Below, piece by piece: positions 3,215 through 23,605 of a stretch of DNA of 64,000 bases. Each line of letters opens with the position of its first letter. Within the stretch, counting starts at the first letter, position 1. The stretch is from positions 4,994-68,993 of the forward strand of contig CAZZIE010000004.1 in NCBI GenBank assembly GCA_964654185.1, in the 5' to 3' direction. A program made the position numbers and the translations under genes. The notes beneath the pieces were generated by a model. It was given only the letters and a program-made list of their open reading frames with translations, was not told where the DNA came from and made no database searches. The DNA is from an uncultured Spirochaetaceae bacterium (GTDB taxonomy: Bacteria > Spirochaetota > Spirochaetia > DSM-27196 > PWMO01).

Positions 3215-3347
3215 GGGATACACCTCCCTCTTTGGGATCACTATAGTTTGCTCCCGCATTGAATTGCAACGAAACGGCGCTGTTGAATCCGTGCTCGACG
3301 GCAACGTATACTGCAAGAATAGAAACGTCTCCACCGGGGAGGGAGAG

Positions 3348-3800
3348 ATGAAACGAATCGTCATTCTGGCGTTGCTGCTTGCCCTGACGGCCGGCTTCGC
3401 CGTGGCACAATCGAACGAGCTCATAGATGAGCTACTAGCTACGGAGGAAGCGCCCTTCGCGGCTGCGGTGTATCTGGTCATGCTCGCCGGCGGCGAGATC
3501 GACGAGGACACCTCGGTCCAGGAGGCGTACAGTGAGTTCGACTTCTCCAACTGGAGGATCGCGGAGAAAGGAGCGGATGCTCCGGTCACCCTCGGCGAGC
3601 TCGCCTACCTCAGTATGGAGACCCTTGGCATTTCGGGCGGCATCATGTACAGCCTGATACCGTCACCGCGGTACGCCGCACGAGAGTTCAGTTATCTACG
3701 GCTCGTCCCGGGCAAGGCGTATCCGGGGCGCGTCCTCTCGGGGCGTGAAGTGGTCGACGTGATTGGCCGCGCCACGCGATACGCGGACCAGCAAGGTTGA
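3348..3800 (+). CDS. hypothetical exported protein (signal peptide)
   Basis: MKRIVILALLLALTAGFAVAQS signal peptide with GGGAGAG just upstream. It is the first gene of a tightly spaced four-gene plus-strand operon divergent from the cyclase. Confidence 0.7.
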   Translation: MKRIVILALLLALTAGFAVAQSNELIDELLATEEAPFAAAVYLVMLAGGEIDEDTSVQEAYSEFDFSNWRIAEKGADAPVTLGELAYLSMETLGISGGIMYSLIPSPRYAAREFSYLRLVPGKAYPGRVLSGREVVDVIGRATRYADQQG

Positions 3801-8782: not shown

Positions 8783-10273
8783 CTACGCGGTTTCGGCCAG
8801 CCGTTTGTTGATTGCCGCGGCCGCCTGTCTCCCCTGCCCCATGGCAAGGATCACCGTGGCTGCTCCCAGGACGATGTCGCCGCCGGCGAAGACGCCGGGG
8901 ATGGAGGTCTCGCCATTATCGTCGGTGATGATGTTTCCGCGGCGGTTCACCTTCAGTTCGGGAGTGGTTGTAACCAGGAGCGGGTTGGATTCGTTGCCGA
9001 TCGAGACGATGACCGTATCCACGTCAATGACGTTCTCGCTGTCGGGTATGGCGACGGGACGGCGGCGGCCGGAGTCGTCCGGTTCGCCGAGCTCATAGTC
9101 CAGGCACTCAATGCCGACAACGCGCTCGTCCTCATTCCCGAGAATGCGCTTCGGGCTCTTGAGGAAGTGGAAGCGGATCCCCTCCTCCTCGGCGTGATCC
9201 ACCTCTTCGGCCCGGGCGGGCATCTCCGTGCGGGTACGCCGATACACGACATTCACCTCTTCGGCGCCCAGGCGCACCGCCGTCCGGGCGGCGTCCATGG
9301 CGACATTGCCGCCGCCGAGAACCGCCACCTTCCGGGGCTGGAAGATCGGCGTGTCGGCCCTGTCACGGTCGTAGGCCTTCATCAGATTGCTCCGGGTGAG
9401 GTACTCGTTCGCCGCGAAGACACCGACGAGGTTCTCCCCGGGAATGCTCATGAACTTCGGCAGTCCCGCACCGGTGCCGATGAAGATGGCGTCGTAGCCG
9501 TCCTTCTCAACCAGATCCCGGAGCTTGCGCGTCCGGCCGACCAGAAAGTTCGTCTTGATCTCGACACCCATGGCTTCCAGGGTCTTGATCTCGTCTCCGA
9601 CGATGCGCTTGGGAAGCCGAAACTCCGGAATGCCGTAGATCATGACCCCGCCGGGCTTGTGGAACGCCTCGAAGAGGGTGACCTCGTGACCCTCCCGGCG
9701 AATGTCCGCGGCGGCGGTGATGGAAGCGGGACCGCTGCCGATCACGCCGACCTTCTTACCGGTCGCCGGCTTCACCGTCGGCGAGGCGCCGTCGGCGTGC
9801 TCTGCGCCCCAGTCAGCCACGTAGCGCTCGAGCCGCCCGATCGATACGGACTTGAAGATGTCCTTCAGCGACTTACCTACGGTGCAGTACTCCTGACACT
9901 GATTCTCCTGGGGGCACACGCGACCGCAGATCGCCGGGAGAAGACTGGTCTCCTTGATGACTGCAAGCGACTTTGCGTAGTCGCGCTCGGCTATCGCCTT
10001 AATGAATCCTGGAATGTCGATGGCAACGGGACAGCCCTTGATGCAGGGTGCATTCTTGCACTGGAGGCAGCGTTCCGCTTCGACGAGGGCCTGCTCCTCG
10101 AAGTAGCCGTAGGTTACTTCTTCCATATTGCCGCGACGCTCCCGCGGATCCTGGCTCGGCATGTCCTGCTGGGGTATCTTCAAGCGATCCTTGTTCTTCA
10201 TGGTCGCCGGGTCAATGCTCTTGAGAACGTCCTGCGCTTCCGCCTGCAACTCTTCCGCTGATCGAAAACTCAC
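8783..10273 (-). CDS. nfnB: GltD/NfnB-type NADPH-dependent FAD/[4Fe-4S] oxidoreductase. This is the large subunit of an NfnAB/SudAB-like pair, often annotated as homotetrameric glutamate synthase.
   Basis: EAERCLQCKNAPCIKGCPVAIDIPGFI...LPAICGRVCPQENQCQEYC, then two Rossmann motifs (VGVIGSGPASI, VAVLGGGNVAMDAART) and FAGGD. GTG start with GGAAGGGAG upstream. Confidence 0.8.
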   Translation of the reverse strand: MSFRSAEELQAEAQDVLKSIDPATMKNKDRLKIPQQDMPSQDPRERRGNMEEVTYGYFEEQALVEAERCLQCKNAPCIKGCPVAIDIPGFIKAIAERDYAKSLAVIKETSLLPAICGRVCPQENQCQEYCTVGKSLKDIFKSVSIGRLERYVADWGAEHADGASPTVKPATGKKVGVIGSGPASITAAADIRREGHEVTLFEAFHKPGGVMIYGIPEFRLPKRIVGDEIKTLEAMGVEIKTNFLVGRTRKLRDLVEKDGYDAIFIGTGAGLPKFMSIPGENLVGVFAANEYLTRSNLMKAYDRDRADTPIFQPRKVAVLGGGNVAMDAARTAVRLGAEEVNVVYRRTRTEMPARAEEVDHAEEEGIRFHFLKSPKRILGNEDERVVGIECLDYELGEPDDSGRRRPVAIPDSENVIDVDTVIVSIGNESNPLLVTTTPELKVNRRGNIITDDNGETSIPGVFAGGDIVLGAATVILAMGQGRQAAAAINKRLAETA

Positions 10274-10359: not shown

Positions 10360-11226
10360 CTACTTCTGGGCAGCCTGCCGCTCCTCCGCGTCTGCCACGG
10401 CGTCGAGCCTGCACGCCTTGCTGGCTTCCGTTTCCTGGTCCTTGTAGGCGGCGAGACGCCGCAACATGTTGTCGAAGTCCACGGCATGCCCGTCGAACTC
10501 CGGGCCGTCCACGCAGACGAACTTCGTCTCACCCCCGACGGTGACCCGGCATCCCCCGCACATGCCGGTACCATCGACCATGATGGTATTGAGGGATACC
10601 ACCGTATGCACCTCGTAGGGACGGGTCGTTTCGGCGGCGAACTTCATCATGATCGGCGGCCCGATTGCCACGGCGAGATCCGGGGGCGGGTCCTGCTCGC
10701 ACTGCTCCTTCAGGGGCTCGGTCACGAGGGCCTTCCGTCCGTAGGAGCCGTCGTCGGTCACCACGATGAGCTCATCCGCAATGGCGCCCATCTCCTCTTC
10801 CAGGATGACGAGCTCCTTCGTCCGCGCCCCAATGATGATGGTAACGTGATTGCCCGCCTCCTTGAGCGCCTGGGCGATCGGATGCAGCGGTGCCACACCG
10901 ATTCCGCCACCGACGCAGACGACCCGGCCGAAGTTCTCAATGTGGGTGGGCTGCCCCAGAGGTCCGAGGACGTTCGCAATGGCGTCCCCCGCCTGATACG
11001 TGGCGAGCACCCTGGTGGTCTTGCCCACCGCCTGGAAGATGAGAGTGATCGACCCCTCGTCGGGGTCCGCATCCGCAATGGTCAGAGGAATGCGTTCGCC
11101 GAAGTTGTCGTCGAGCTGCAGGATGACGAACTGCCCGGGGTGTCGCTCCCGGGAAATCTCGGGAGCGCGAATGCGCATCTTGAAGACGTTTTCCGAAAGC
11201 TGCGTTCGTTCCAGTATTTCCTTCAT
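10360..11226 (-). CDS. nfnA: NfnA/SudB-type ferredoxin-NADP-reductase-like FAD/[2Fe-2S] subunit
   Basis: Start at MKEILERTQLSENVFKMRIRAPEI (ATG at 11226). FNR-like fold motifs are present (RIPLTIAD, VCVGGGIGVAPL) with a C-terminal Cys cluster (GTGMCGGCRV...FVCVDGPEF). Confidence 0.8.
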   Translation of the reverse strand: MKEILERTQLSENVFKMRIRAPEISRERHPGQFVILQLDDNFGERIPLTIADADPDEGSITLIFQAVGKTTRVLATYQAGDAIANVLGPLGQPTHIENFGRVVCVGGGIGVAPLHPIAQALKEAGNHVTIIIGARTKELVILEEEMGAIADELIVVTDDGSYGRKALVTEPLKEQCEQDPPPDLAVAIGPPIMMKFAAETTRPYEVHTVVSLNTIMVDGTGMCGGCRVTVGGETKFVCVDGPEFDGHAVDFDNMLRRLAAYKDQETEASKACRLDAVADAEERQAAQK

Positions 11227-11394: not shown

Positions 11395-11517
11395 AAGAGT
11401 CCATATTGCTCTGATCATACGGCGGCAGGTCGTCCGTGTAAAGGGTCTGGTTGAAACATCCTACCTTTCCCGATCACCATTCGCGCCTTCCGGGGCTTTC
11501 CGCCCGGCCGCTGCCGA

Positions 11518-13320
11518 TCAGATTCTTCGACGCTGTGCATTCAGCCCCAGGAGCGTGGCATCAATGCCCTTGGCGGCCTGGTGGCCGTTGGCAATTGCAC
11601 TGATCGCGTCGCGCTTGGTGTTGGTAATGTCGCCACCGGCGAATACCTTAGGATCGCCGGTTGCCCCGAACTTGTCTACCGTCACCCGGCCGCGGTCGAC
11701 GGTGATCTTTGCCAGCGCCTCCTCCGGCAGGAAGGAGTAGTCCGCATCCTGGCCGATCGCCGAGATAACGGAGTCGAAGACCTCCCGGTGCTCGGAGCCC
11801 TCGATCAAGACGGGCTTCGGACGCTTCCCCTCCCCCTGGTCGACCATCTCCGCCTCGCCCCAGACGAAGGTCGCCTGGGTACTCCGGGACGCATCCTCCA
11901 CGGCAATCGGAACGGCCTGGGGAACGATCCGCACGCCCTCGTCGATGGCCTCATCGATCTCCTCCTCGTCGGCGGGCATGTCCTGGATGCGGCGCCGGTA
12001 GAGCACCGTGACCTCCGCCCCCAGGCGGCGGGCGGTCCGGGCGGCGTCCATGGCGACGTTGCCGCCGCCGATGACGGCGACCTTCTCTCCCATACCGGGA
12101 TCGCGCCCGGCGGTAACGTCGTCGAGAACCGTGATTCCCGACAGTACCCGCGGGTGGTCCTCTCCGGGAATGCCCATCTGATAGGCGTTGGGAAGACCGG
12201 TGGAGATGAAGACCGCGTCGTAGTCCCGATAGATGTCTTCGAAGGTGAGGTCGCGGCCAACCTGGAACTCCTGCTTGATCTCGACCCCGAGGGAGCGGAT
12301 GTAGTCGATGTCCTTGTTGATCTGATCGTAGGGAAGCCGGTACTCCGGGATTCCGTAACGAAGCATGCCGCCGGGGAGGTCCCGGGAGTCGTACACGGTG
12401 ATCTCGTAACCCAGGAGACGCAGATAGTAGGCGGCGCTCAGGCCGCCGGGGCCGGAGCCGACGACTGCCACGCGCTTGCCGTTGGACTCTTCCGCGCTGC
12501 CCAGGATCATCTCGTAGTCCCGGGAGTAGATCTGGTCCGCAATGTAGCGCTTGAGCCAGCGGATCGAGATGGCCTCCCCCTCGCCGTGGCGCTTTGCACA
12601 GACGCTCTCACAGGTGTGCGTACACACCCGCCCGCACGATGCCGGAAGCGGGTTGGATTCATAGACGATGCGCAGGCCTTCTCCGAGATCATCGTCGCGG
12701 ATGGCGCGAATGTAGCCGGGCACGTCCATGTGCGCCGGGCAGGTGGCAATGCAGATGCCGCAGGCGACGCAGCGGTCCGCCTCTTTCCGGGCCTGCTCCT
12801 CGGAATAGCCCTGCACGAGCTCCCGGAAGCTGGTCAGACCCTCCTCGGGAGCGAGCGTCTCCATCTTCACGCGCTCCTTCTCCAGGAGCTCGTACCCCGG
12901 GGCGCGCTCGTACCCGAGGTCGCTCTCGTCCCAGGCCTTCCGGTCCTCTCCGGGAACGTAGCGGAAGACGTCCGGGTCGATGTCGACCCAGATGTACTCG
13001 TTGCTCATGCCCAGAGAGCCGGTGGGGCAGATGTCGACGCAGAGGGCGCACCAGCAGCAGCGGCCGTAGTCCACCATGGGGCGCAGACCGCTGTCGCCGT
13101 GACGCGGCTTGTGCCGGACCGACTCCACCAGATCGATGGCCTCGTTCTGGCACACGGTCTCGCAGGTCCCGCATCCAATGCACATCTCGCCGTCGTTGGT
13201 GTGAAAGCCCCGGTACCGGGGCGCCCCGGGCCGATCATCAATGGGGTTCTTCGTCGTATAGGGCTTCTCGAAGGCGCGCTTCCACACCGAAAAGGGTGCA
13301 ATCAGGTCTTTGACACTCAT
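11518..13320 (-). CDS. fusion protein: NuoI/MbxN-like 2x[4Fe-4S] ferredoxin subunit (N-terminal, about 170 aa) joined to a GltD/NfnB-like FAD-NAD(P)H oxidoreductase (C-terminal, about 430 aa)
   Basis: N-terminal part: CIGCGTCETVCQNEAI ... CCWCALCVDICPTGSL (NuoI-type). C-terminal part: EADRCVACGICIATCPAHMDVPGYI...ASCGRVCTHTCESVC, VAVVGSGPGGLSAAYYL, VAVIGGGNVAMDAART, FAGGD. It is the last gene of the coupled operon. Confidence 0.85.
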   Translation of the reverse strand: MSVKDLIAPFSVWKRAFEKPYTTKNPIDDRPGAPRYRGFHTNDGEMCIGCGTCETVCQNEAIDLVESVRHKPRHGDSGLRPMVDYGRCCWCALCVDICPTGSLGMSNEYIWVDIDPDVFRYVPGEDRKAWDESDLGYERAPGYELLEKERVKMETLAPEEGLTSFRELVQGYSEEQARKEADRCVACGICIATCPAHMDVPGYIRAIRDDDLGEGLRIVYESNPLPASCGRVCTHTCESVCAKRHGEGEAISIRWLKRYIADQIYSRDYEMILGSAEESNGKRVAVVGSGPGGLSAAYYLRLLGYEITVYDSRDLPGGMLRYGIPEYRLPYDQINKDIDYIRSLGVEIKQEFQVGRDLTFEDIYRDYDAVFISTGLPNAYQMGIPGEDHPRVLSGITVLDDVTAGRDPGMGEKVAVIGGGNVAMDAARTARRLGAEVTVLYRRRIQDMPADEEEIDEAIDEGVRIVPQAVPIAVEDASRSTQATFVWGEAEMVDQGEGKRPKPVLIEGSEHREVFDSVISAIGQDADYSFLPEEALAKITVDRGRVTVDKFGATGDPKVFAGGDITNTKRDAISAIANGHQAAKGIDATLLGLNAQRRRI

Positions 13321-13323
13321 GAT

Positions 13324-14559
13324 CTACCTCTCGATCTCCGGCGGATAGGTGTGGAGGCTGACCATGAGCCCCGCAACGTCGGCGATATTTGTTCCCACCG
13401 CCAGCTTTTCCAGCACCACCATGGCGTGGGTGTATGAGGGGCCGCGCACATACACGCGCCGGGGGTATCCGGTACCGTCGGCAACAAGGAAGTACCCGTA
13501 TTCGCCCCGGGTACACTCCGCGCGACGGTAGGTCTGCCCGGGTGGGATCTTCCAGTGCAGGACGTTCGGCAGCCTAGTGTGAATGGCGCCCTCCGCGGGA
13601 ATGCGGTCGGCGATCTGTCTGATCAGTGAGATCGCCTGGTACATCTCCCGAAAGCGCACCCGGGCGCGGGCGTAGGCATCCGACTCTGTCTCAGTGACGA
13701 TGTCAAAGTCCAACTGATCGTAGCCGAGATACGGCGCATCCTTGCGGATGTCCCGGGCGACGCCGGCGGCTCGCGCATTCGGACCGGTAATGCCGTAGCG
13801 GTCGATCATGTCCGGGGTGATCACGCCGAGCCCCTTTGCCCGGGACTTGAAGACGGCGTTGGAGAACATGGCAAGGTCGATCTCCCCGAGGAGCTTCTCC
13901 ACTGTGGCCAGGACCGCCTCGAGACGATCCCGGAAGCCCTCCGGAAGATCCGCGCGAACTCCGCCGGGGATGATGTACATGTGGTAGATGCGGCCACCCG
14001 AGAGCTCCTCGAAGAGATCGAGGATGTAGTCGCGGTGGACCATGGTCCACTGGCCGATGGTGCCCATGCCGAAGGAGCCCGCCTGGCCGCCGATCCACTG
14101 AAGGAAGCTCGTCAGCCGCGCCATCTCCAGCGTCAGGAGGCGGATCCAGTTGGCCTTCTCCGGCACCTCGATCCCGGCGAGCTCCTCCACGGTGGCGGCG
14201 TAGAGATACTCGTTGAAATCGGGTTCCGGCACGCAGATCCGGCACACTAACGGGAAGTTCTGAATGAAGGTGCGCCGCTCCATGAGCTTCTCGAAGCCCC
14301 GGTGGAGATATCCCACGTGGGTCCGGCACTCCACGACGGTGTCTCCTTCCACGGTGAGCTCCAGGGACATGTTGCCGGTAATGCCGGGATGGTTCGGGCC
14401 CTGCCAGAGCTTGAGATACTTCCCGCTCTCGAGATCGATCCGCGGCGCGCCGGTGTCGGAGCCCTCATTCCGGTCCGGGGCGTCGAACTCGCGATAGGTC
14501 GGCTTCTCGTAGATCTCCCGGGAGTCGATGTCCCGGAACAGATGGGTGTACGTGCTCAT
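13324..14559 (-). CDS. NuoD / [NiFe]-hydrogenase large-subunit homologue lacking the C-terminal NiFe ligands (MbxL/MbsL-like)
   Basis: WQGPNHPGITG...HVGYLHRGFEKL is typical of the family. The N-terminal motif reads VCRICVPEP where RICGIC is expected. The C-terminus reads SLHTYPPEIER where DPCxxCxxR is expected. Confidence 0.85.
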   Translation of the reverse strand: MSTYTHLFRDIDSREIYEKPTYREFDAPDRNEGSDTGAPRIDLESGKYLKLWQGPNHPGITGNMSLELTVEGDTVVECRTHVGYLHRGFEKLMERRTFIQNFPLVCRICVPEPDFNEYLYAATVEELAGIEVPEKANWIRLLTLEMARLTSFLQWIGGQAGSFGMGTIGQWTMVHRDYILDLFEELSGGRIYHMYIIPGGVRADLPEGFRDRLEAVLATVEKLLGEIDLAMFSNAVFKSRAKGLGVITPDMIDRYGITGPNARAAGVARDIRKDAPYLGYDQLDFDIVTETESDAYARARVRFREMYQAISLIRQIADRIPAEGAIHTRLPNVLHWKIPPGQTYRRAECTRGEYGYFLVADGTGYPRRVYVRGPSYTHAMVVLEKLAVGTNIADVAGLMVSLHTYPPEIER

Positions 14560-15173
14560 GACGTGCTCTCCCCGTCGGTGCCGGCACCGCCCGCCTCCGG
14601 AGAGGCCGGGTGCGGTCCGTCGATCTCCGCGTAGAGGGCGCGCTTCATGTGCTCCCGGACTACGGTTTTCTTGCGCCCGGGGCGCGGGAAGTAGCGCGCC
14701 TCCGAATAGGCGCGGGTATCGAACTCCCGGCGCATGGGGGGAATGTCGTTCCAGCTCTCCAGGATGAAGGGCTCATCCACCCGGGGGCTCCCGGGGAAGT
14801 CGATGCCGAACATCTCCTTGAGCTCCCGCTGGTAGGTGCTTGCCTGCGCCCAGAGGAGGTGGATCGACTCCATCTCCGCGGCGTCCCGGGGAACCTCCAC
14901 CTCGACGCCCACGTCCCGTCGGCCGGTGTAGTCGTGGAGCAGATAGGTGAGACGAAAGGTCCCCTGCTCGATCACGTCGACCGCCGTCAGGAAGACCAGA
15001 TGGGTGAACCCCTCGACGTCGCGAAGGTGGCGGATCATGGGAACGGCGTGCGACCGGGAGATCCGGATGAACGCCTGACCGGCGTGACTGATCCGCCCGT
15101 TGTCGGTCTCGAAACGCTGAGCAAGGTCCTGGAGAAGCTCCTCAAGGGGGCGAGTGGCCGTATGCATCGTCAT
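14556..15173 (-). CDS. NuoC/MbxK-like 30-kDa subunit
   Basis: HLVFLTAVD...YQRELKEMFGIDFPG pattern. The start overlaps neighbouring genes by 4 nt. Confidence 0.8.
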   Translation of the reverse strand: MTMHTATRPLEELLQDLAQRFETDNGRISHAGQAFIRISRSHAVPMIRHLRDVEGFTHLVFLTAVDVIEQGTFRLTYLLHDYTGRRDVGVEVEVPRDAAEMESIHLLWAQASTYQRELKEMFGIDFPGSPRVDEPFILESWNDIPPMRREFDTRAYSEARYFPRPGRKKTVVREHMKRALYAEIDGPHPASPEAGGAGTDGESTS

Positions 15174-15191: not shown

Positions 15192-15962
15192 CTACCAGTT
15201 GTAGTCCGGCATGTTCCAGTCGGTGATGACCCTCTTCTGATTCGCCTTGTACCAGTCGAAGTTCTCGGCGTAGTAGTTGGCCCCTTCGGCTTCGCCGGCG
15301 CGGATCAGTTGCTTCAGCTTCTGGAATCCCGCGAGGATGGCTTCAGGGCGCGGCATGCAGCCGGCGACGTAGACATCCACGGGGATGTAGTGATCGAGGC
15401 GGTTGATGGTGTTGTAGCTGTCCCAGTACATGCCGCCGTTGATGGTGCAGCTCCCGAGGCCGATCACGAACTTCGGGTTCTGCATCTGCTCGTAGCTCCG
15501 GACGATACGCTTGAGGGTCTTCAGGGAGACGTAACCCCCAATGATGAAGACGCTCGACTGCCGCGGCGTGGGGCGTCCCTGAATGCCGTAGCGGTAGGCG
15601 TCGAACCGGGCGGTCATGAGGGGACGGAGCTCGATTGCGCCGCAGCCGGTGCCGAAGCCGAGGATCCAGAGGCTCTGGGAGCGGGCCCAGTTGAGGAATT
15701 TCTCAATGATGCCGCGGAAGGGGGCGACCGCCTCGGGGCGGGCGTCACAGAAGCAGGCACGGTCCTGGATCGGCATGTCGAGGTTGGGAAGGCGCACGCC
15801 GTCTCCCGTGATGGGCAGGGTGCGCTTCTCTTCCGGGTCCGACGCGGCGCTTGTGTCCGGGGCCGTTGCCCGCGCCGCTGCCGTGCCCGGCGCGCCGCCC
15901 GGCGCATTGGCCGACGCGTTGGCCGCCGCCTCCGCAGAGGTGCCGTCTGTGTGGTCGCTCAT
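15192..15962 (-). CDS. NuoB/MbxJ-like [4Fe-4S] subunit with an Ala/Pro-rich N-terminal extension of about 60 aa
   Basis: SLWILGFGTGCGAIE, VIGLGSCTINGG and VAGCMPRPE. Only one Cys sits where complex I has CC. The ATG at 15962 overlaps the TGA of the upstream gene (ATGA), which supports the long form. Confidence 0.8.
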   Translation of the reverse strand: MSDHTDGTSAEAAANASANAPGGAPGTAAARATAPDTSAASDPEEKRTLPITGDGVRLPNLDMPIQDRACFCDARPEAVAPFRGIIEKFLNWARSQSLWILGFGTGCGAIELRPLMTARFDAYRYGIQGRPTPRQSSVFIIGGYVSLKTLKRIVRSYEQMQNPKFVIGLGSCTINGGMYWDSYNTINRLDHYIPVDVYVAGCMPRPEAILAGFQKLKQLIRAGEAEGANYYAENFDWYKANQKRVITDWNMPDYNW

Positions 15963-16885
15963 GCAACGCTCCTTATGATCTGCAGCGCGACGGCGATAAC
16001 GCCGATCGCTGCGGGGATCTTCAAGAAGAAGGTGATCGAATCCTGAACGCGGAAGCGTGGGAAGGAGACTCCCACGAAAACCGTGAACAGATAGATGAGA
16101 AAGGTCTTGATGACCATGGCAAAGATGTTGGTCGCTCCACCGAAGAAGAGGTTCATGTAGAGGATCAGCTTTGCGCCGTTGAAGATGGCGCGGTTGGACT
16201 GGAGCATGCCCATGTAGGAGCCCTGATACTCCGTCGGCGGGCCCATGGGGATCTCCTGCGGTGCGGTGACGACACTGAAGGGGTTACCCATGGTCATACC
16301 CAGGAAGGCGACCATTCCGGCAATGGTGGCCAGAGGATTGGCAAAGAGGTTCCAGCTGAGAATCCCTCCCTGCTGGACCGCGACGATTTCGGTTATCGAC
16401 AGGGTGTTGTGCTGGATTGCCAGGGACACGATCGCCAGGGTGAAGGGCACCTCGAAGGCGGTCATCTGCGCAAGGCCCCGGGCAACGCCGATGGCGCTGT
16501 ACGGGTGCCCGCCCTCACCGGCTCCGAGGGCCATGCCGAGCTGGCCGAAGAAGATGAAGTACACCACCAGGAGCAGGTCGCCGGCGAAGTGGAAGTTCCC
16601 GAACACCGTGGAGCCGAAGATGACGGGAATAAACATGAGCGTGCCGATGCCGCCGGCGAGGCGGAAGACCGGCCCCAGATAGAACATGATCCCGTGGCTT
16701 ATGGTTGTCCGCTTGGCGTTGTTCTTGATGATGTCGATGTACGGCTGCCACACGGGGATGCCGATCCGACCTTGGACCCGGGCGCGGATGCGGGCGGTGG
16801 TTCCCATGAGAAGAATCCCGTAGTTGAAGACCACGAAGAGGGTAATGGCGGCGTACAGGACGTGGAGCAAGATCGGCTCGGTCAT
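15959..16885 (-). CDS. NuoH/HycD/MbxM-like membrane subunit
   Basis: A polytopic membrane protein with RIRARVQGRIGIPVWQPYIDIIK at the N-terminus, which is the NuoH/HycD signature region. Confidence 0.8.
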   Translation of the reverse strand: MTEPILLHVLYAAITLFVVFNYGILLMGTTARIRARVQGRIGIPVWQPYIDIIKNNAKRTTISHGIMFYLGPVFRLAGGIGTLMFIPVIFGSTVFGNFHFAGDLLLVVYFIFFGQLGMALGAGEGGHPYSAIGVARGLAQMTAFEVPFTLAIVSLAIQHNTLSITEIVAVQQGGILSWNLFANPLATIAGMVAFLGMTMGNPFSVVTAPQEIPMGPPTEYQGSYMGMLQSNRAIFNGAKLILYMNLFFGGATNIFAMVIKTFLIYLFTVFVGVSFPRFRVQDSITFFLKIPAAIGVIAVALQIIRSVA

Positions 16886-19800
16886 GAGAGACCTCCTGCA
16901 ATGACGTAGAGAGCGACAACAAAGAGGAGAATGTGGAGCGCGTAGGTCTGGCCGTTGCCGGAGTAGATGCGCCGCATGGCGGAGCCCGCGGCGTTCACCC
17001 CGTCACGGACCCCCGCCCAGAAGGCGATCACGCCGGGTCGTGAGAGAAAGCCCAACGCCTTGTCGTAGTGGGCGAAGAAGTGATGGGCGAAGTGGGTGGT
17101 TTCCGGGCGATCCGGGCGCTCCGCAGCGTAGACAATGTTGAACTGTCCGACCGCCTGGGGACGGCGCATGACGACCATGAGCCACACGAGGGGCACAATG
17201 AACACCACCATGGTGACGTACATGACCAGGTTGCCGTTCCAGTATCCCAGCGTCGAAAGCACCGTGTAGCGCTCCATGACCGTAGCCGTACCGAGGTAGG
17301 CGCCGGTGGTCGAGAGGAGTGGCTGCACGAGCAGATTCGGATACATGGAGACGCCCATGAGCCCCCCGGCCAGAAGCAACTGCGGCAGGATGAGCCAGAA
17401 GGGCGCCTCCCGCACCTCGCGATGCGTGTCCTTCAGCTGTCCCAGAAAGATCGTGTGGATGAACTTGAAGAGGTAGAGAAACGCAATGGTGCTGGCAAAG
17501 AAGGCAAGGGCCGCCTGGAAGTACCACCCGCGCTCGAGCAGCGCGGTGTAGAGCATCCATTTGCCGCCGAACCCTGCCAGGGGCGGAACCCCCGACACCG
17601 CAATGATGGCCATGAGCGACGATATGAAAGTCAGGGGCATCTTCTTGATGAGCCCGCCGAGCTCGTGCATCCGGCTCGTTCCGGTCCTGAAGATGACTCC
17701 GGCCACGGCCAGGAAGAGCATTCCCTTGAAGATCAGGTGGAGCACCGAGAGATAGAGCCCCGTGGTCCATCCGAGCTGACTCGCCATGGCGACGGCCATG
17801 ATGATGTAGCCGAGCTGGCTCATGGAGGAGTACGCCAGGAGATACTTCACATCGCTCTGGTACACCGCGAGGAGCGCACCGAAGAGGGCCGTGAGTGCGC
17901 CGATCCAGCCGACGATTGCCAGCAAGAGATCCGCAGCGCCGGCGGTCGTAACGAGGAGCATGCCGACAACCAGGAGTCCCGCAACGGGCACCTTGCTCAG
18001 AATGCCGGAGAAAACCGGAGACAGGTCGTCCTCCGCCTCGGCGTAGGCGCCGGGAAGCCAGATCTGCACCCCGACGGCACCGGCTTTGACCAGAAATCCC
18101 GCAACAATGAGGATGAGCGCGGCCAGCGAGGCGCCGGCACTCACGCCCCCGGCCGCGCCGGTGCCGGCGTTGAGGGCCCCGGCGGTCGCGCCGGACAACG
18201 CGGAAACCGCGAGCCCCGCCACGGCCGGTCCCAGCAGAGCCGCTGCATCCGGAGCCAGGGTCGCGGAGACGACGTGGGGAAAGCCGAAGGCGACGCCGGT
18301 GAGCCCCAGGTAGACCAGCCCCACCATGAGAAGGAACGCCCCGCCGACGGAGAAGACAAGATAGCGAAGGGCCGCCCGGGCGGCGCCGTGTCGCCTCAAC
18401 AAGAGAAGGTAGGACGCCAGCGTAACCGACTCGAAGGCGAGAAAGAATCCCGCCGAGCTCTCGGCGGCAAGGAGGGAAACCATGCTCAAGGTGAGTGCGG
18501 CAACCAGGGGAAAGAGCCCCGTTGCGCGCTTCCTCCGGTTCAGCAGCGCAAGAGTGGCAATCACGCCGCCTCCCGCGAAGATTCCCAGAAAAACAACCCC
18601 CATGCCTTCGAGCATCGGATAGACCACCCAGCCGAACCCGGCAATCGCCGCCACGGTGAGCAGGGCCTTCACCCGGGCCGGCAACCAGTCGAGAACCCAC
18701 AACGCCACAGCCGCGGCAAAGGGCACGAAGAGGAGCACCTCCCGGAAGCCGAACAGCCAGGCCGACAGAGGGCCCAGGACGAGCAGGATCACCGCAAACA
18801 CCCCGGGAGGATCGTCGGCCACGCCGGTCCGGGTCGCGCCGGTGCGGGCCTCGCCGGTGCGGGCCTCGCCGGTCCGTACCGGTGCGGCCGCCGCGGCGGC
18901 GTGGGCAGTCGCCGTGACACCGCGGGCACCCGCCGCAGGCAGCGCGTCGTCAGCGGCCGCCGCGGATCGCGCCCTCTCGTCCGCGACGGGTTCACCAGCG
19001 TCCTCCCCGAGCACCTGCGGAGTCAGCGCCGCCCCGAGAAAGCGGAAGAGATACGTCGCCTCGAGGAGGGAGCCCAGGAGGATCACGACGATCCAGAGAA
19101 CTGAGCCCGCCCCGGCAAGCTGAGTAATGAGCGTCCACTTTGCCCAGAATGCCGGAAAGGGAGGAAGGCCTGCGAGGGCGATTACGAAGAGTCCCGCGGC
19201 AATCAGCAGACCGCGGCGAACTCGTGACCCGTCACCGCCACGGCGCAGCCGGCTTGCCAGACCGGCCAATCCCTCGAAGCCCAGGGAGGAGGCGATCCAG
19301 AAGAGGCCGCCCTTTGCCAGGAGATGATTCACCAGGAGACCGCCGCCTACCAGAAGGGACGTGCCGACGCTCCAGTCCTGCAGATGTGCCAGCGAGACTG
19401 TCGCCACGACCAGACCGAGTTGCGCCACCGAGGAGTATCCGAGCATTCGCCGGACCTGACGCTGCCGGAGTCCCATCAGGTTGGAAAGACCGAATGTCAG
19501 TACACCGACACCAACGAGGACACTCAGCTGTGGGCCAGGAATCATCGGCACAATCTTGTAGAGGGCAGCAACAATGCCGCCGGAGGTGCCCACGGAGATG
19601 ATTGATGCAACTGCCGGCTCGGAGGCTTCATATACATCGAGCGCCCATCCGTTCGCCGGGAAGGGCTTCAGCTCAATCAACAGCGCAGCGACCACCAGGA
19701 ACACGGCGACGAATCCCGCGCCGCCGGTAAGAACCTCGCTCCCCTGGGCCGTCAGGATCATGCCGTCAATGTTCAGGGTTCCGGTCACGCGATAGAGGTA

Positions 19801-20331
19801 GATCGTGCCAATCAGAAACAGTGCCGATGCCAGACCTCCCGCTATGACATACTTGAAGCCCGCACTGAGACCGCGTTGATCGTCGTGCAGGGCAATCATG
19901 CCGTACGTGGCAATGGCGGTGATCTCCAGGAACACGAACACGTTGAAGAGGTCCCGGGTGAGGATCAATCCGTTGGTCCCCATGGCCATCATGAGCAAGA
20001 GGATCTGCGCGCCCAGATGACCGTGAAGGAATCGCCTCGTGAGAAGAACGCCCGATCCGAGGAAGGCCAGATTCACTGCAAGGGCGAGCCCGGCCTCGAG
20101 GGTCCCCATGCGCAGGTTGATCGAAAAGGGCGGCGCAAACCCCGCCGTCAGCACCTCCGGAGCGGCCGCGCCGCCCAGGAGCGCAACGAGCCACGCACCG
20201 GAGAGCCCGACCATCCAGGCAAGGGTTCCAAGGGTCAGCCCGAGGGAGAGACCCCGGCCGAGCCGGTCGGCAAGTCCGAGAAGAAATGCAACCAGGAGCG
20301 CGATTGCCGGCAGAAAGATCGGGCTTACCAT
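16882..20331 (-). CDS. fused double NuoN/MrpD-type antiporter-like subunit (MbxH'-MbxH equivalents in one 1149-aa polypeptide)
   Basis: Two complete Proton_antipo_M-like modules (about residues 1-450 and 520-1149) are joined by an Ala/Arg/Thr/Gly low-complexity linker (...RTGEARTGEARTGATRTG...). Confidence 0.8.
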   Translation of the reverse strand: MVSPIFLPAIALLVAFLLGLADRLGRGLSLGLTLGTLAWMVGLSGAWLVALLGGAAAPEVLTAGFAPPFSINLRMGTLEAGLALAVNLAFLGSGVLLTRRFLHGHLGAQILLLMMAMGTNGLILTRDLFNVFVFLEITAIATYGMIALHDDQRGLSAGFKYVIAGGLASALFLIGTIYLYRVTGTLNIDGMILTAQGSEVLTGGAGFVAVFLVVAALLIELKPFPANGWALDVYEASEPAVASIISVGTSGGIVAALYKIVPMIPGPQLSVLVGVGVLTFGLSNLMGLRQRQVRRMLGYSSVAQLGLVVATVSLAHLQDWSVGTSLLVGGGLLVNHLLAKGGLFWIASSLGFEGLAGLASRLRRGGDGSRVRRGLLIAAGLFVIALAGLPPFPAFWAKWTLITQLAGAGSVLWIVVILLGSLLEATYLFRFLGAALTPQVLGEDAGEPVADERARSAAAADDALPAAGARGVTATAHAAAAAAPVRTGEARTGEARTGATRTGVADDPPGVFAVILLVLGPLSAWLFGFREVLLFVPFAAAVALWVLDWLPARVKALLTVAAIAGFGWVVYPMLEGMGVVFLGIFAGGGVIATLALLNRRKRATGLFPLVAALTLSMVSLLAAESSAGFFLAFESVTLASYLLLLRRHGAARAALRYLVFSVGGAFLLMVGLVYLGLTGVAFGFPHVVSATLAPDAAALLGPAVAGLAVSALSGATAGALNAGTGAAGGVSAGASLAALILIVAGFLVKAGAVGVQIWLPGAYAEAEDDLSPVFSGILSKVPVAGLLVVGMLLVTTAGAADLLLAIVGWIGALTALFGALLAVYQSDVKYLLAYSSMSQLGYIIMAVAMASQLGWTTGLYLSVLHLIFKGMLFLAVAGVIFRTGTSRMHELGGLIKKMPLTFISSLMAIIAVSGVPPLAGFGGKWMLYTALLERGWYFQAALAFFASTIAFLYLFKFIHTIFLGQLKDTHREVREAPFWLILPQLLLAGGLMGVSMYPNLLVQPLLSTTGAYLGTATVMERYTVLSTLGYWNGNLVMYVTMVVFIVPLVWLMVVMRRPQAVGQFNIVYAAERPDRPETTHFAHHFFAHYDKALGFLSRPGVIAFWAGVRDGVNAAGSAMRRIYSGNGQTYALHILLFVVALYVIAGGLS
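18823..18882. repeat. 15-bp tandem repeat (about 4 degenerate copies) encoding the inter-module linker
   Basis: GCCGGTGCGGGCCTC at 18838-18852 and 18853-18867, with degenerate copies on both sides. It encodes (RTGEA)n on the minus strand. Confidence 0.8.
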
Positions 20332-20750
20332 TTCAGCTCCTTGAAGTCGTCGATCTGGAGCGATCCCCGGCGATCGTGCAGCTGCACGGCGTAGACGAGC
20401 ATGAGGGCGGTGACAGCCAGCCCGATTACAATGGCGGTGAGCACCAGCGCCGACGGCACAGGATCAACCACCTGGGCGGCGGCCCCCTGAGCGGCGGTGG
20501 CCTGCGCGGCGCCGGCCTGAGCGGCGGCGGCCTGCGCGGCGCCCCGGCCGGCGGTGCCGAGGACGGCAACGGCTTCGTCCAGAATCGGGGCGGTGCGCCC
20601 GCGGATGTAGCCGATCGACACCATGACGAGGTGGATCCCGGTGTCGACGATCGAGAAGCCAATGATCATCTTCACGATGTTGCGCTGCGTGAGCATGCCC
20701 CACAGTCCAATGAGAATCAGCAGAAAGCCGAAGGCGGATACGATGGTCAT
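20325..20750 (-). CDS. MrpC/NuoK/MbxG-like small membrane subunit with a low-complexity loop insertion
   Basis: FGFLLILIGLWGMLTQRNIVKMIIGFSIVDTGIHL is MnhC/NuoK-like. It carries an inserted AAQAAAAQAGAAQATAAQGAAAQ stretch. Confidence 0.75.
   Translation of the reverse strand: MTIVSAFGFLLILIGLWGMLTQRNIVKMIIGFSIVDTGIHLVMVSIGYIRGRTAPILDEAVAVLGTAGRGAAQAAAAQAGAAQATAAQGAAAQVVDPVPSALVLTAIVIGLAVTALMLVYAVQLHDRRGSLQIDDFKELKW
20486..20545. repeat. 30-bp tandem duplication inside the MrpC-like gene
   Basis: CCTGAGCGGCGG(T/C)GGCCTGCGCGGCGCC at 20486-20513 and 20516-20543. Confidence 0.8.
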
Positions 20751-21598
20751 GGCGCCTCCCGATTGGGTTCGTGGGTATGCGCGGCTGCGGGATTTGCCCT
20801 CATACGGTCGAGAATGCCGGTGAGCTCCGCCCCGACTTTGAGACCGACCAGCGAGTAGATCACGGGAATTGCGCCGGCACTCAGGAGCATCCCGTATCGA
20901 CCGGGCGGCAACAGCCGTGCATCCAGAAAACCTGCAGCCAGCACGATGCCGAGAATGCCGATTATCACGTAGGCTCCGCCGGACATCGACTCGATGAAGG
21001 TCAGTATCCCGTGGCCGATGCGAGCGCGGCTCGCCGAGAGGAAGTGCAGGAGCGCCGCCGCGGCAACAAGGACTCCTCCCTGGAATCCTCCGCCCGGAGT
21101 CAGGTGGCCGTGAAGGAATATGTACACACCGAAGACGAGCACCAGGGGCATGAGAATCCGCGCCCCGCTGGTGAGAATCTCCGATGGCTCGGATCGCGAG
21201 GCGCTTTCGCGGTCCAGTCCCGACCCGACCTCGTCTCCGGGGAGTCCGTGCAGGGGCCGCCCGCGACCCGGGGCAATTGACCGCTCCGGGGAAGCGGGCC
21301 CCGGCACGGCGCCGGTGAGCGGTCCGTGAGCATCGGGCCCAAAGCTGCGGCGCAACAGGAACCCGATCCCCGCGGTAGCGATGAAGAGAACCGCAACTTC
21401 CCCGAGTGTATCGAGTCCCCGATACGTGACTACCACCGCGGTGACGACGTTCTGGGCTCCGAGCTCATCCGGCGTGCGAGTTACGTAGCCCTCGGCAACG
21501 CGGGAGAGCTCGGCAGTCGGCGGCACGTCCCGGAGGAGCGGAAAGAGCAGCACTGCCACACCGGCGACCGCGACGATGGCAAACAATCTGGCGATCAT
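20747..21598 (-). CDS. MnhB/MrpB-family membrane subunit (MbxF-like, with a MbhE-like N-terminal part)
   Basis: NVVTAVVVTYRGLDTLGEVAVLF and FLHGHLTPGGGFQGG are MnhB-family signatures. They are separated by a Pro/Gly/Ser-rich insertion. Confidence 0.75.
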   Translation of the reverse strand: MIARLFAIVAVAGVAVLLFPLLRDVPPTAELSRVAEGYVTRTPDELGAQNVVTAVVVTYRGLDTLGEVAVLFIATAGIGFLLRRSFGPDAHGPLTGAVPGPASPERSIAPGRGRPLHGLPGDEVGSGLDRESASRSEPSEILTSGARILMPLVLVFGVYIFLHGHLTPGGGFQGGVLVAAAALLHFLSASRARIGHGILTFIESMSGGAYVIIGILGIVLAAGFLDARLLPPGRYGMLLSAGAIPVIYSLVGLKVGAELTGILDRMRANPAAAHTHEPNREAP

Positions 21599-22340: not shown

Positions 22341-22341
22341 G

Positions 22342-23092: not shown

Positions 23093-23179
23093 AGGCGCTC
23101 CCCATACCCGTCTGCAACTCGGTCGGCACACTCAAGGGTCAGGCGACGAAACGCACAGGCCGGCCGCTTCGATGGGCAC

Positions 23180-23604: not shown

Positions 23605-23605
23605 T

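What the first reader, a model, noticed from the sequence alone, without database searches (positions are those of the whole stretch)
11518..13320. NuoI/MbxN-like ferredoxin subunit fused to a GltD/NfnB-like FAD-NAD(P)H oxidoreductase
One 600-aa ORF has two parts. The first about 170 residues carry two CxxCxxCxxxCP motifs of the NuoI/MbhN type (CIGCGTCETVCQ; CCWCALCVDICP). The rest is a complete GltD/NfnB-type module: CVACGICIATCP...CGRVCTHTCESVC, two GxGxxG Rossmann motifs and FAGGD.

In MBH/MBS, the N subunit is where ferredoxin delivers electrons. Here a pyridine-nucleotide flavoprotein is attached covalently at that position. This suggests three possibilities:
- an ion-translocating ferredoxin:NAD(P)+ oxidoreductase (an Rnf-like function built on a different scaffold);
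- an NAD(P)H-driven version of the MBS reaction;
- a flavin-based bifurcating entry module, because NfnB carries the bifurcating FAD in NfnAB.

I recall similar fusions being noted in genome surveys of bacterial Mbx-like clusters, but I cannot verify this or recall any biochemical characterisation.
Basis: partly seen in the sequence, partly recalled or inferred. Interest (0 to 1): 0.75.

Follow-up and report, generated by a model that had tools for sequence, protein, structure and literature searches.

The report
NADPH-flavoprotein fused to sulfur-respiration complex subunit
The fusion is real, but it is the ordinary last gene of a widespread and already noted bacterial "Mbx/MBS-like" membrane complex; it most likely lets NAD(P)H feed electrons into an ion-pumping sulfur reductase, although nobody has tested this biochemically.

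Summary
Window 11518..13320 (-) is one 600-aa ORF. It has an MbsN/NuoI-type 2x[4Fe-4S] domain (res 1-125), a ~20-residue linker and a complete GltD/NfnB-type module with two more [4Fe-4S] clusters, FAD and an NAD(P)H site.

It is not a frameshift: the same gene is a single ORF of 588-634 aa in all 78 complete orthologous loci examined. At least 579 species genomes from many phyla carry the junction.

It is the last gene of a 12-gene operon that is colinear with Pyrococcus MBS (formerly Mbx). The J subunit has only three Cys for its proximal cluster, which is the MBS catalytic signature.

The fusion is not new. Degli Esposti 2015 described it for Thermotoga and proteobacteria, and an NCBIfam model (PRK13984) spans it end to end. 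No biochemical characterisation was found.

Best reading (about 0.45): NADPH -> FAD -> 4x[4Fe-4S] -> three-Cys cluster -> sulfane sulfur, coupled to ion pumping, so the module acts as a built-in input module. An Rnf-like Fd:NAD(P)+ role is less likely, because that electron path bypasses the coupling site.

Bifurcation is weakly supported. The downstream NfnA comes with its own canonical NfnB, most loci have no NfnA, and the fused module lacks NfnB's cluster motif.

The parts
11518..13320 (-). Fusion gene, 600 aa: MbsN/NuoI-like domain + linker + GltD/NfnB-like flavoprotein. It is the last gene of the MBS-like operon.
12946..13320 (-). MbsN/NuoI-type 2x[4Fe-4S] domain (res 1-125). It contains PRYRGFH (res 34-40) and the Cys motifs at nt 13147-13182 and 13024-13059.
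   Evidence: The best PDB match is 6u8y_N, res 7-130 against 21-142. NCBIfam NuoI models also match. The eight Cys are invariant in alignments A1-A3.
12889..12945 (-). Inter-domain linker (about res 126-144). Its length varies among homologues.
   Evidence: Alignment A1 shows insertions here, e.g. in P0019 and P0132. AF2 pLDDT in the linker itself is about 78-82; it falls to 63 and 50 just downstream, at res 151-170, the start of the GltD-type module.
12523..12831 (-). Fer4_20 domain (res 164-266) with two all-Cys [4Fe-4S] motifs: CVACGICIATCP (nt 12736-12771) and CGRVCTHTCESVC (nt 12598-12636).
   Evidence: Pfam PF14691, 101 bits. Conservation is shown.
11587..12474 (-). FAD/NAD(P)H-binding module (res 283-578). 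It contains the FAD GxGxxG (nt 12442-12459), the NAD(P)H GGGNVA (nt 12052-12069), LYRRR after beta-2 (nt 11989-12003; predicted 2'-phosphate site, hence NADPH) and FAGGD (nt 11629-11643).
   Evidence: Pfam PF07992, 123 bits. Foldseek gives TM 0.86 to 5jca_L. The motif comparison across loci is, and the same YRR motif occurs in T. maritima NfnB.
13324..14559 (-). MbsL/NuoD-like subunit (411 aa). It has no NiFe CxxC pairs; the equivalent of MbsL C85 is kept and C385 is Tyr.
   Evidence: It scores 328 bits to 6u8y_L, 220 to Nqo4 and 134 to MbhL; the alignment is shown.
14556..15173 (-). MbsK/NuoC-like subunit.
   Evidence: Pfam PF00329.
15192..15962 (-). MbsJ/NuoB-like subunit carrying the proximal [4Fe-4S] cluster. 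Only three Cys are available (GFGTGCG, GSCTINGG, AGCMPRPE). It has an N-terminal low-complexity extension of about 80 aa.
   Evidence: It scores 224 bits to 6u8y_J; the position of MbsJ C25 is Gly. The same holds in 70 of 71 orthologous loci.
15959..16885 (-). MbsM/NuoH-like membrane anchor.
   Evidence: Pfam PF00146.
16882..20331 (-). Fused double antiporter-like subunit (1149 aa), equivalent to MbsH + MbsH'.
   Evidence: Two Proton_antipo_M stretches; NuoN-like and NuoM/MrpD-like halves.
20325..23131 (-). Mrp-type module: MnhC (20325-20750), MnhB/MbhE (20747-21598), MbhD (21595-21930), MnhG (21927-~22320), MrpF (22342-22602) and MnhE (22595-23131).
10360..11226 (-). NfnA-like gene (288 aa counted from Met34 of the 321-aa ORF). 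It has FAD/NAD domains and an Asp+3Cys [2Fe-2S] motif. It lies 291 nt downstream of the fusion gene.
   Evidence: NF004862, 414 bits, match starting at res 34; Pfam PF10418; orthologues are called at 288 aa.
8783..10273 (-). Separate, canonical NfnB (496 aa), the likely true partner of NfnA.
   Evidence: It scores 523 bits to T. maritima NfnB 4ylf_B and carries the motifs CLQCKNAPCIKGCP and CGRVCPQENQC.
11414..11442 (-). Sigma-70-like promoter match in the gap between the fusion gene and nfnA (a consensus match only).
23299..23676 (-). Glutaredoxin-like ORF (CSHC motif) directly upstream of the operon. Its association with the operon is uncertain.
   Evidence: Pfam PF00462, 26.6 bits. The same gene sits in the same place in L003 and L005.

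Best explanation
The gene encodes the electron-input subunit of a bacterial MBS (Mbx)-type, Mrp-linked, ion-translocating membrane complex.

In the archaeal enzyme, ferredoxin docks on MbsN. In this protein, MbsN is covalently extended by a GltD/NfnB-type module. The wire is therefore NAD(P)H (predicted NADPH in this window) -> FAD -> two [4Fe-4S] (Fer4_20 domain) -> two [4Fe-4S] (MbsN domain) -> the three-Cys proximal [4Fe-4S] of MbsJ. At that last cluster a sulfane-sulfur substrate (polysulfide or a persulfide) is reduced, and the reaction drives ion export through the fused H/H' antiporter and the Mrp module.

The fused module plays the part that NuoEFG plays in complex I, or FpoF in Fpo.

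In this lineage the neighbouring, self-sufficient NfnAB probably converts reduced ferredoxin plus NADH from fermentation into the NADPH that the complex consumes.

Shown: the domain make-up, the cofactor motifs, the operon, the MBS signatures, and conservation of the fusion.
Inferred: the direction of electron flow, the nucleotide specificity, the sulfur substrate, ion coupling, and the link to NfnAB.
For: 1. The operon is colinear with P. furiosus mbsA-N. Its L, J and N parts match the MBS structure 6U8Y far better than complex I or MBH.
2. MbsJ has exactly three Cys for the proximal cluster. MBS C25 is Gly here and in 70 of 71 related loci. Yu et al. 2020 identify the three-Cys cluster with one open Fe as the polysulfide-reducing site (PMC7684303).
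3. The vestigial NiFe cysteines of MbsL vary within the family (C or A; Y or C). This fits their dispensability in P. furiosus MBS.
4. The fused module is complete, with 8 Cys and FAD and NAD(P)H motifs. It folds like NfnB/GltD.
5. In every characterised relative the Fer4_20 clusters carry electrons between the flavin and a partner. Here they sit on the N-terminal side of the GltD-type module, separated from MbsN only by a short linker.
6. From established knowledge of complex I, MBH and MBS, coupling to ion translocation occurs at the chamber under the proximal cluster. Only a path that ends there can use the conserved membrane arm.
7. The LYRRR motif matches the NADPH-binding NfnB of T. maritima. 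All nine loci with nfnAB downstream have the YRRR type. In five of them nfnA overlaps or abuts the stop codon of the fusion gene.
8. The T. maritima mbx operon is induced by S0 (PMC9431562).
Against: - No biochemistry exists for any fused enzyme, as far as the held literature shows.
- The literature annotates bacterial Mbx as a ferredoxin:NAD(P)+ oxidoreductase.
- NADPH -> polysulfide spans only about 60 mV under standard conditions, which leaves little energy for pumping.
- Many carriers of the operon are sulfur- or iron-oxidising or microaerophilic Proteobacteria. Sulfur reduction is not their obvious lifestyle.
- Nucleotide specificity is inferred from a motif only.
Confidence: 0.45

Rival explanations
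1. Ion-translocating ferredoxin:NAD(P)+ oxidoreductase (Rnf-like, the classical 'Mbx' annotation). Ferredoxin reduces the Fe-S chain, and the fused flavoprotein releases the electrons as NAD(P)H.
For: - This is the function assigned in the literature to bacterial Mbx and specifically to the gltD-like subunit (PMC4758237).
- GltD/NfnB modules are reversible.
- It would suit autotrophs and diazotrophs in the family if the enzyme ran backwards.
Against: - The route Fd -> MbsN clusters -> Fer4_20 clusters -> FAD never reaches the MbsJ proximal cluster, which is the only known coupling site in complex-I-type enzymes.
- That cluster and its three-Cys catalytic form are conserved across the family, which would be unexplained.
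- The Fd:NADP+ function once proposed for P. furiosus Mbx was replaced by polysulfide reduction.
Confidence: 0.2
2. Flavin-based bifurcating entry module. NADPH is oxidised at the fused FAD. The high-potential electron goes through NfnA to NAD+, and the low-potential electron goes straight into the MbsN/MbsJ chain without free ferredoxin.
For: - The closest solved relatives of the module are all bifurcating subunits: NfnABC 9n5u and 9bov, NfnB 4ylf, NfnI 5jca and Stn 8oh5.
- In those enzymes the Fer4_20 clusters form the low-potential branch.
- nfnA lies downstream here and in 9 spirochaete loci. In five of these it overlaps or abuts the stop codon of the fusion gene.
Against: - nfnA is always followed by its own canonical nfnB, so it already has a partner.
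- 74 of the 83 distinct comparison loci have no nfnA next to the operon. 35 of them carry a rubrerythrin-like gene, nearly always directly downstream.
- The fused module lacks NfnB's CxxCx4Cx3CP and CPQE..C motifs.
- In this window, 291 nt and a promoter-like site separate the genes.
Confidence: 0.12
3. The same wire operates with two donors (ferredoxin and NAD(P)H both feed the sulfur site). Alternatively it runs in reverse in lithotrophs, using ion-motive force to drive reduction of NAD(P)+ by sulfide or polysulfide.
For: - The operon is common in sulfur-storing or sulfur-oxidising and iron-oxidising bacteria: Thiohalocapsa, Chromatiaceae, Thiodiazotropha, Sedimenticola, Gallionellaceae, Sideroxydans and Magnetococcales.
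- Their modules have a different, acidic (predicted NADH-type) nucleotide site.
- The sulfide/NAD(P)+ gap is small.
Against: - This is purely inferential.
- There are no expression or enzymatic data.
- Fermentative sulfur-reducing hosts such as Spirochaetota and Thermotogota do not need a reverse reaction.
Confidence: 0.15
4. Artefact: two adjacent genes merged by a sequencing frameshift or a lost stop codon.
For: None found.
Against: - The gene is a single ORF of 588-634 aa in 78 of 78 complete loci from independent assemblies and phyla.
- More than 120 full-length homologues exist.
- The junction sequence is conserved.
- The other two reading frames across the junction contain a stop codon or read as Arg/Pro/Gly-rich off-frame sequence with no recognisable motif.
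Confidence: 0.01

Closest known systems
Pyrococcus furiosus membrane-bound sulfane reductase MBS (formerly Mbx), PDB 6U8Y
   Same: - The order of the Mrp-type, H/H', M, J, K, L and N genes is the same.
- The L, J and N parts are each most similar to the MBS chains.
- The proximal cluster has three Cys.
- There is no NiFe site.
   Different: - The N subunit carries a C-terminal GltD-type flavoprotein of about 455 aa, whereas archaeal MbsN is 208 aa and takes electrons from free ferredoxin.
- H and H' are fused into one 1149-aa protein.
- MbsJ C25 is absent outright.
- MbsL C385 is Tyr.
Bacterial 'mbx-like' operons of Thermotoga and proteobacteria with a gltD-related subunit in place of NuoI (Degli Esposti 2015, PMC4758237); NCBIfam NF010590 / PRK13984 'putative oxidoreductase'
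   Same: - The fusion architecture is identical: the 611-position profile matches res 2-590 end to end.
- The operon is the same.
- A Thermosipho homologue (P0130) belongs to the same family.
   Different: - The window protein scores 680 bits, below the equivalog cut-off of 946.
- It has a YRRR (predicted NADPH) nucleotide site, whereas Thermosipho and proteobacteria have the LQK..YG..LE type.
- It lacks the rubrerythrin-like gene that usually ends the operon and is followed by nfnAB instead.
NfnAB large subunit NfnB (T. maritima 4YLF/4YRY; P. furiosus NfnI 5JCA/5JFC)
   Same: - The fold is the same (TM 0.86).
- It has two [4Fe-4S] clusters, FAD and an NADPH-type YRR site.
   Different: - Identity is only 37-38%.
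- The cluster motifs are all-Cys and resemble those of the NfnABC/Stn A subunits.
- It has no dedicated NfnA.
- A true NfnB (523 bits to 4ylf_B) is encoded separately nearby.
GltD of glutamate synthase and the N-terminal module of dihydropyrimidine dehydrogenase
   Same: The logic is the same: NADPH -> FAD -> two [4Fe-4S] -> partner redox centre, acting as a plain, non-bifurcating input wire. This is the behaviour proposed here.
   Different: Sequence similarity is lower (196 and 124 bits). The partner here is a respiratory Fe-S chain, not an FMN site.
N-module of complex I (NuoEFG) and FpoF of F420H2 dehydrogenase
   Same: The concept is the same: a soluble dehydrogenase module is added to the NuoI end of an ancestral ferredoxin-dependent core.
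   Different: The proteins are unrelated, and here the attachment is covalent.
Rnf complex
   Same: A possible overall reaction (Fd:NAD+ coupled to ions), if the rival reading holds.
   Different: No homologous subunits, and a different coupling mechanism.

Membership tests
MBS/Mbx-type membrane complex | Gene set and order: Mrp-like A-G, two antiporter-like H/H', then M, J, K, L, N | tested here: met
   The same order holds in every related locus long enough to show it. H and H' are fused.
MBS/Mbx-type membrane complex | The proximal [4Fe-4S] of the J subunit is held by three Cys only (MbsJ C28, C93, C123), leaving one open Fe | tested here: met
   Only three Cys are available; the C25 position is Gly. 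This holds in 70 of 71 loci. The definition is from PMC7684303.
MBS/Mbx-type membrane complex | The L subunit lacks the NiFe CxxC pairs and keeps two vestigial Cys (C85, C385) | tested here: inconclusive
   There are no CxxC pairs. The C85 equivalent is kept and C385 is Tyr. Both positions vary in the family. Both are dispensable in P. furiosus.
MBS/Mbx-type membrane complex | Polysulfide/DMTS reductase activity with ion translocation | not testable with these tools
   This needs enzyme assays.
MBS/Mbx-type membrane complex | Free ferredoxin as the electron donor at a stand-alone N subunit | tested here: not met
   The N subunit is fused to a flavoprotein. Ferredoxin use itself cannot be tested here.
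NuoI/MbsN 2x[4Fe-4S] subunit | Two CxxCxxCxxxC(P) motifs and the N-terminal PRYRGxH segment | tested here: met
   the residues are invariant in A2.
GltD/NfnB/DPD-type NAD(P)H flavoprotein | Fer4_20 domain with 8 Cys, an FAD GxGxxG, a second NAD(P)H dinucleotide fold, and the GGD motif | tested here: met
   fold TM 0.84-0.86 to 5jca_L, 4ylf_B and 6s6s_E.
NfnB sensu stricto (bifurcating subunit of NfnAB) | Cluster motifs CxxCx4Cx3CP and CGRVCPQE..C as in T. maritima NfnB | tested here: not met
   The fusion has CVACGICIATCP and CGRVCTHTCESVC. The separate NfnB of the window has the canonical motifs.
NfnB sensu stricto (bifurcating subunit of NfnAB) | A dedicated NfnA partner ([2Fe-2S] + FAD) encoded with it | tested here: inconclusive
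   NfnA is present downstream here but is followed by its own NfnB. No NfnA is found next to the operon in 74 of the 83 distinct comparison loci.
NCBIfam NF010590 (PRK13984) equivalog | Whole-protein score at or above the curated cut-off (946 bits) | tested here: not met
   680.5 bits, but the match is end to end (res 2-590 against profile 7-606 of 611). The architecture is the same but the relationship is more distant.
Rnf-type Fd:NAD+ oxidoreductase | RnfABCDEG subunits | tested here: not met
   No Rnf domains occur in the operon.

The most novel reading that the evidence does not exclude
The fused family is a third kind of ion-motive NAD(P)H machine, alongside complex I and Rnf: a reversible NAD(P)H:sulfane-sulfur oxidoreductase.

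In fermenters it would dump NADPH electrons on sulfur and pump ions. In sulfur- and iron-oxidising autotrophs it would run backwards, making NAD(P)H from sulfide or polysulfide at the cost of only about one ion. Where nfnA is translationally coupled to the fusion gene, it might dock NfnA and become a membrane-bound bifurcating Nfn.
Probability: 0.15. Interest if true: 0.8.

Novelty: new member of a known kind. Interest (0 to 1): 0.4.

Why it matters
The enzyme family is abundant. It occurs in at least 579 species genomes, from Thermotogota and Spirochaetota to sulfur- and iron-oxidising Proteobacteria and symbionts. It is routinely annotated only as 'FAD-dependent oxidoreductase' or 'glutamate synthase small chain', and it has never been purified.

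Its donor, acceptor and coupling ratio decide how much ATP these anaerobes gain from sulfur-facilitated fermentation. They also bear on how lithotrophs balance NAD(P)H. The family shows a second, independent way in which evolution attached a pyridine-nucleotide module to the ancestral ferredoxin-dependent core of complex I.

This particular locus adds no new principle. It does offer a useful natural variant: a predicted NADPH-type site with nfnAB in place of the usual rubrerythrin-like gene.

Tried and rejected
- **Frameshift or artefact:** rejected by the orthologue comparison.
- **'NfnA downstream means a whole NfnAB is docked on the complex':** weakened once the next gene proved to be a canonical NfnB and once synteny showed no nfnAB next to most loci.
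- **Literature on biochemical characterisation:** ten full-text searches found only genome-survey mentions and expression data. The last search (MbsN/MbxN) returned only unrelated noise. Schut et al. 2013 (PMID 22713092) and Wu et al. 2018 (PMC6204914) are not held. My memory that Schut 2013 discusses the fused bacterial MbxN is therefore unverified.
- **Fe-S to Fe-S distances:** not measurable, because the structure tool returns no coordinates or PAE. Only pTM 0.77 hints at a defined domain arrangement.
- **Rfam scan of the window:** no RNA elements.
- **Terminator after the fusion gene:** none found.
- **ArsR-type gene downstream of the operon in Marispirochaeta:** it resembles the sulfur-sensing BigR only weakly (52 bits against a cut-off of 155), so it was not used as evidence.
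Full report
**1. The observation**

Window 11518..13320 on the minus strand is a single ATG-initiated ORF of 600 codons. It starts three bases after the stop of the upstream NuoD-like gene.

All 17 cysteines of the protein fall in four Fe-S motifs:
- res 47-57 and 88-98, of the NuoI type;
- res 184-194 and 229-241, in the Fer4_20 domain.

Database and structure evidence for the two halves:
- Pfam gives Fer4_7 (47-101), Fer4_20 (164-266) and Pyr_redox_2 (283-578).
- NCBIfam NuoI models cover res 5-123.
[quoted passage not shown] MbhN gives 43 bits.
- The C-terminal 450 residues match the flavin subunits of NfnABC, NfnAB, Xfn and Stn at 310-258 bits, then GltD at 196 and DPD at 124.
- An AlphaFold2 model built on 79 homologues has mean pLDDT 82 and pTM 0.77. 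Confidence is low only at res 19-23, at 164-171 (the start of the GltD-type module, just after the linker) and at the C-terminal tail.
- Foldseek superposes the model on NfnI-L 5jca_L and NfnB 4ylf_B with TM 0.86 (target-normalised), and on GltD with TM 0.84.

**2. It is not a frameshift, and it is not rare**

- More than 120 full-length proteins of 590-640 aa share 60-92% identity. The named ones are Spirochaetota: Marispirochaeta, Oceanispirochaeta and Pleomorphochaeta.
- A search of 1.84 billion cluster representatives with only the N-terminal 175 residues found that its closest relatives are mostly long fusions of 580-770 aa. These include Thermosipho melanesiensis and Ca. Hydrothermae/WOR-3 proteins.
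- I scanned one genome per species with an alignment that spans the junction (NuoI domain + linker + first Fer4_20 motif).
- The best 80 loci come from Spirochaetota, Cloacimonadota, Bacteroidales, Magnetococcales, Chromatiales (including Thiohalocapsa marina DSM 19078), Sedimenticola, Thiodiazotropha symbionts, Methylococcales, Gallionellaceae/Sideroxydans, Rhodoferax, Chlorobiota and others.
- In all 78 loci not cut by a contig end, the gene is one uninterrupted ORF of 588-634 aa.

**3. Context**

The fusion gene is the last gene of a 12-gene minus-strand operon:

| Gene | Coordinates |
|---|---|
| mnhE | 22595-23131 |
| mrpF | 22342-22602 |
| mnhG | 21927-~22320 |
| mbhD | 21595-21930 |
| mnhB/mbhE | 20747-21598 |
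| mnhC | 20325-20750 |
| fused double antiporter subunit, 1149 aa | 16882-20331 |
| NuoH-like | 15959-16885 |
| NuoB-like | 15192-15962 |
| NuoC-like | 14556-15173 |
| NuoD-like | 13324-14559 |
| fusion gene | 11518-13320 |

This is the gene order of P. furiosus mbsA-N. tblastn of these proteins against 85 related loci shows the same order wherever the contig is long enough. The closest relative is an uncultured Spirochaetaceae MAG, with 92-96% protein identity.

**4. It is an MBS-type complex, not complex I or a hydrogenase**

- The NuoD-like protein scores 328 bits to MbsL (6u8y_L), 220 to T. thermophilus Nqo4 and 134 to MbhL.
- The NuoB-like protein scores 224 bits to MbsJ, about 130 or less to NdhK/NuoB homologues of NDH-1 and complex I, and 89 to MbhJ.
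- Yu et al. 2020 define the MBS active site as a proximal [4Fe-4S] held by only three cysteines of MbsJ (C28, C93, C123). C25 is too far away to ligate. The two vestigial NiFe cysteines of MbsL (C85, C385) are dispensable (PMC7684303).
- In this window the C25 position is glycine (GFGTGCG) and the other three Cys are kept.
- The same holds in 70 of 71 related loci. The bacterial family can therefore only make the three-Cys, open-iron cluster.
- MbsL keeps the C85 equivalent but has Tyr at C385. Across the family these positions are C/A and Y/C, which is consistent with their being non-catalytic.

**5. What is already known**

[quoted passage not shown] He proposes this subunit as the NAD(P)+ reduction site, and notes that the operon 'often terminates with rubrerythrin' (PMC4758237).
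- NCBIfam NF010590 (PRK13984, 'putative oxidoreductase', 611 positions) matches the window protein end to end, though below its equivalog cut-off (680 against 946 bits).
- Genome papers treat bacterial Mbx as a ferredoxin:NAD(P)+ oxidoreductase.
- The T. maritima mbx operon is induced by S0 and is now proposed to be a sulfur reductase (PMC9431562).
- I found no purification or assay of a fused enzyme in the held literature.

**6. The neighbours: NfnAB and rubrerythrin**

Downstream of the fusion gene there is a 291-nt gap containing one sigma-70-like match and no terminator-like site. After the gap lies an NfnA-like gene (10360-11226; 414 bits to NF004862).

The next gene (8783-10273) is a separate, canonical NfnB. 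It scores 523 bits to T. maritima NfnB and carries the motifs CLQCKNAPCIKGCP and CGRVCPQENQC. NfnA therefore already has its proper partner.

The gene after the fusion gene varies among the related loci:
- **nfnA-nfnB:** in 9 loci, all Spirochaetota and all with the YRRR nucleotide site. In five of them nfnA overlaps or abuts the stop codon of the fusion gene (-4 to +1 nt).
- **Rubrerythrin-family gene of 146-171 aa:** in 35 loci, usually overlapping or within about 25 nt. In P0128 it is fused to the C-terminus.
- **ArsR-type regulator:** in 5 loci.
- **CBS protein:** in 4 loci.

The window has no rubrerythrin-like ORF.

**7. Two kinds of nucleotide site**

- After the second dinucleotide-fold glycine motif, the window protein and most Spirochaetota, Cloacimonadota and many Gammaproteobacteria have V-T-(V/I)-L-Y-R-R-R..DMPA. 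NADPH-binding T. maritima NfnB has the same YRR.
- Thermosipho, Bacteroidales-type members and many sulfur- or iron-oxidising Proteobacteria have an inserted LQK..YG and an acidic (T/S)(A/S)LE(D/T).
- By the standard Rossmann-fold rule, Arg binds the 2'-phosphate and an acidic residue at the end of beta-2 favours NAD(H). On that basis I predict NADPH for this window and NADH for the second group. This is an inference, not a measurement.

**8. Mechanism**

Shown by the data:
- a continuous set of cofactor sites: the NAD(P)H site, FAD, 2x[4Fe-4S] (Fer4_20), 2x[4Fe-4S] (MbsN domain) and the three-Cys [4Fe-4S] (MbsJ);
- a complete antiporter/Mrp membrane arm;
- strict conservation of all of these.

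Inferred:
[quoted passage not shown] Only an electron path that ends, or begins, at that cluster can use the membrane arm.
- That favours NAD(P)H -> ... -> MbsJ cluster -> sulfane sulfur. The fused flavoprotein would then be a built-in input module, analogous to NuoEFG or FpoF.
- A pure Fd -> FAD -> NAD(P)+ route would bypass the coupling site. It would also leave the conserved catalytic cluster unexplained.
- The energy span from NADPH to polysulfide is small under standard conditions, about 60 mV. It is larger at physiological NADPH/NADP+ ratios and low sulfide. This is a real weakness of the proposal.
- In this lineage, the adjacent NfnAB could funnel fermentation-derived reduced ferredoxin plus NADH into NADPH for the complex.
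- Bifurcation at the fused flavin remains possible where nfnA is translationally coupled. It is disfavoured by the points in section 6 and by the non-NfnB cluster motifs.
- The wide occurrence in sulfur- and iron-oxidisers suggests that the reaction may be used in reverse there.

**9. Verdict**

It is a new member of an already noted, very widespread but biochemically uncharacterised family. My confidence in the identity (an MBS-type complex with a GltD-fused N subunit) is above 0.95. My confidence in the proposed direction and substrate is about 0.45. Interest is moderate, at 0.4: a specialist would not be surprised by the fusion, but its function is an open and testable question.

Noticed in passing
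window 34132..37485 (-): This 1117-aa ORF fuses a NuoE-like [2Fe-2S] domain, a NuoF/HydB-like FMN/NADH module and another GltD/NfnB-type module. Its best PDB matches are the B and A subunits of the bifurcating NfnABC/Stn complexes and HydB. It looks like a single-chain Stn/NfnABC-type transhydrogenase. It is the third NfnB-type module within 30 kb.
   Followed up: partly
window 23299..23676 (-); also L003 92-403 and L005 82-387: A small glutaredoxin-like ORF (CSHC motif; Pfam PF00462, 26.6 bits) lies directly upstream of the MBS-like operon. It is also present in two related spirochaete loci. It may hint at a thiol or persulfide substrate or carrier.
   Followed up: partly
L011, L013-L015, L024-L026, L029, L030, L032, L037, L041, L042, L045 and others (35 loci), immediately after the fusion gene: A rubrerythrin-family di-iron protein of 146-171 aa is the most common thirteenth gene of the operon. 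It is often translationally coupled, and in P0128 it is fused to the C-terminus. This window has none. Its role (peroxide protection or an electron acceptor) is unknown.
   Followed up: partly
L008, L017, L019, L020, L023 (spirochaete loci): nfnA overlaps or abuts the stop codon of the fusion gene (-4 to +1 nt) and is followed by nfnB. In some lineages NfnAB is therefore probably co-translated with the membrane complex.
   Followed up: partly
window 15192..15962 (-), residues 1-84: The MbsJ/NuoB-like subunit has an N-terminal extension of about 80 residues, rich in Ala, Gly and Pro, that P. furiosus MbsJ lacks. The annotated start may be too far upstream, or the extension may be a real low-complexity tail.
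   Followed up: no
P0206 (668 aa): In another lineage a different fusion joins NuoI-like, NuoB-like and NuoD-like parts in one polypeptide (alignment).
   Followed up: no
L001/L009/L012/L018/L027, gene after the fusion gene: An ArsR/SmtB-type regulator with several Cys lies after the fusion gene. Its second-best NCBIfam match is the sulfur-sensing repressor BigR, but far below the cut-off (52 against 155 bits).
   Followed up: partly
window 503..3589 (-): A 1028-aa CHASE2-adenylate/guanylate cyclase protein is conserved in the same neighbourhood in the closest relative, L004.
   Followed up: no
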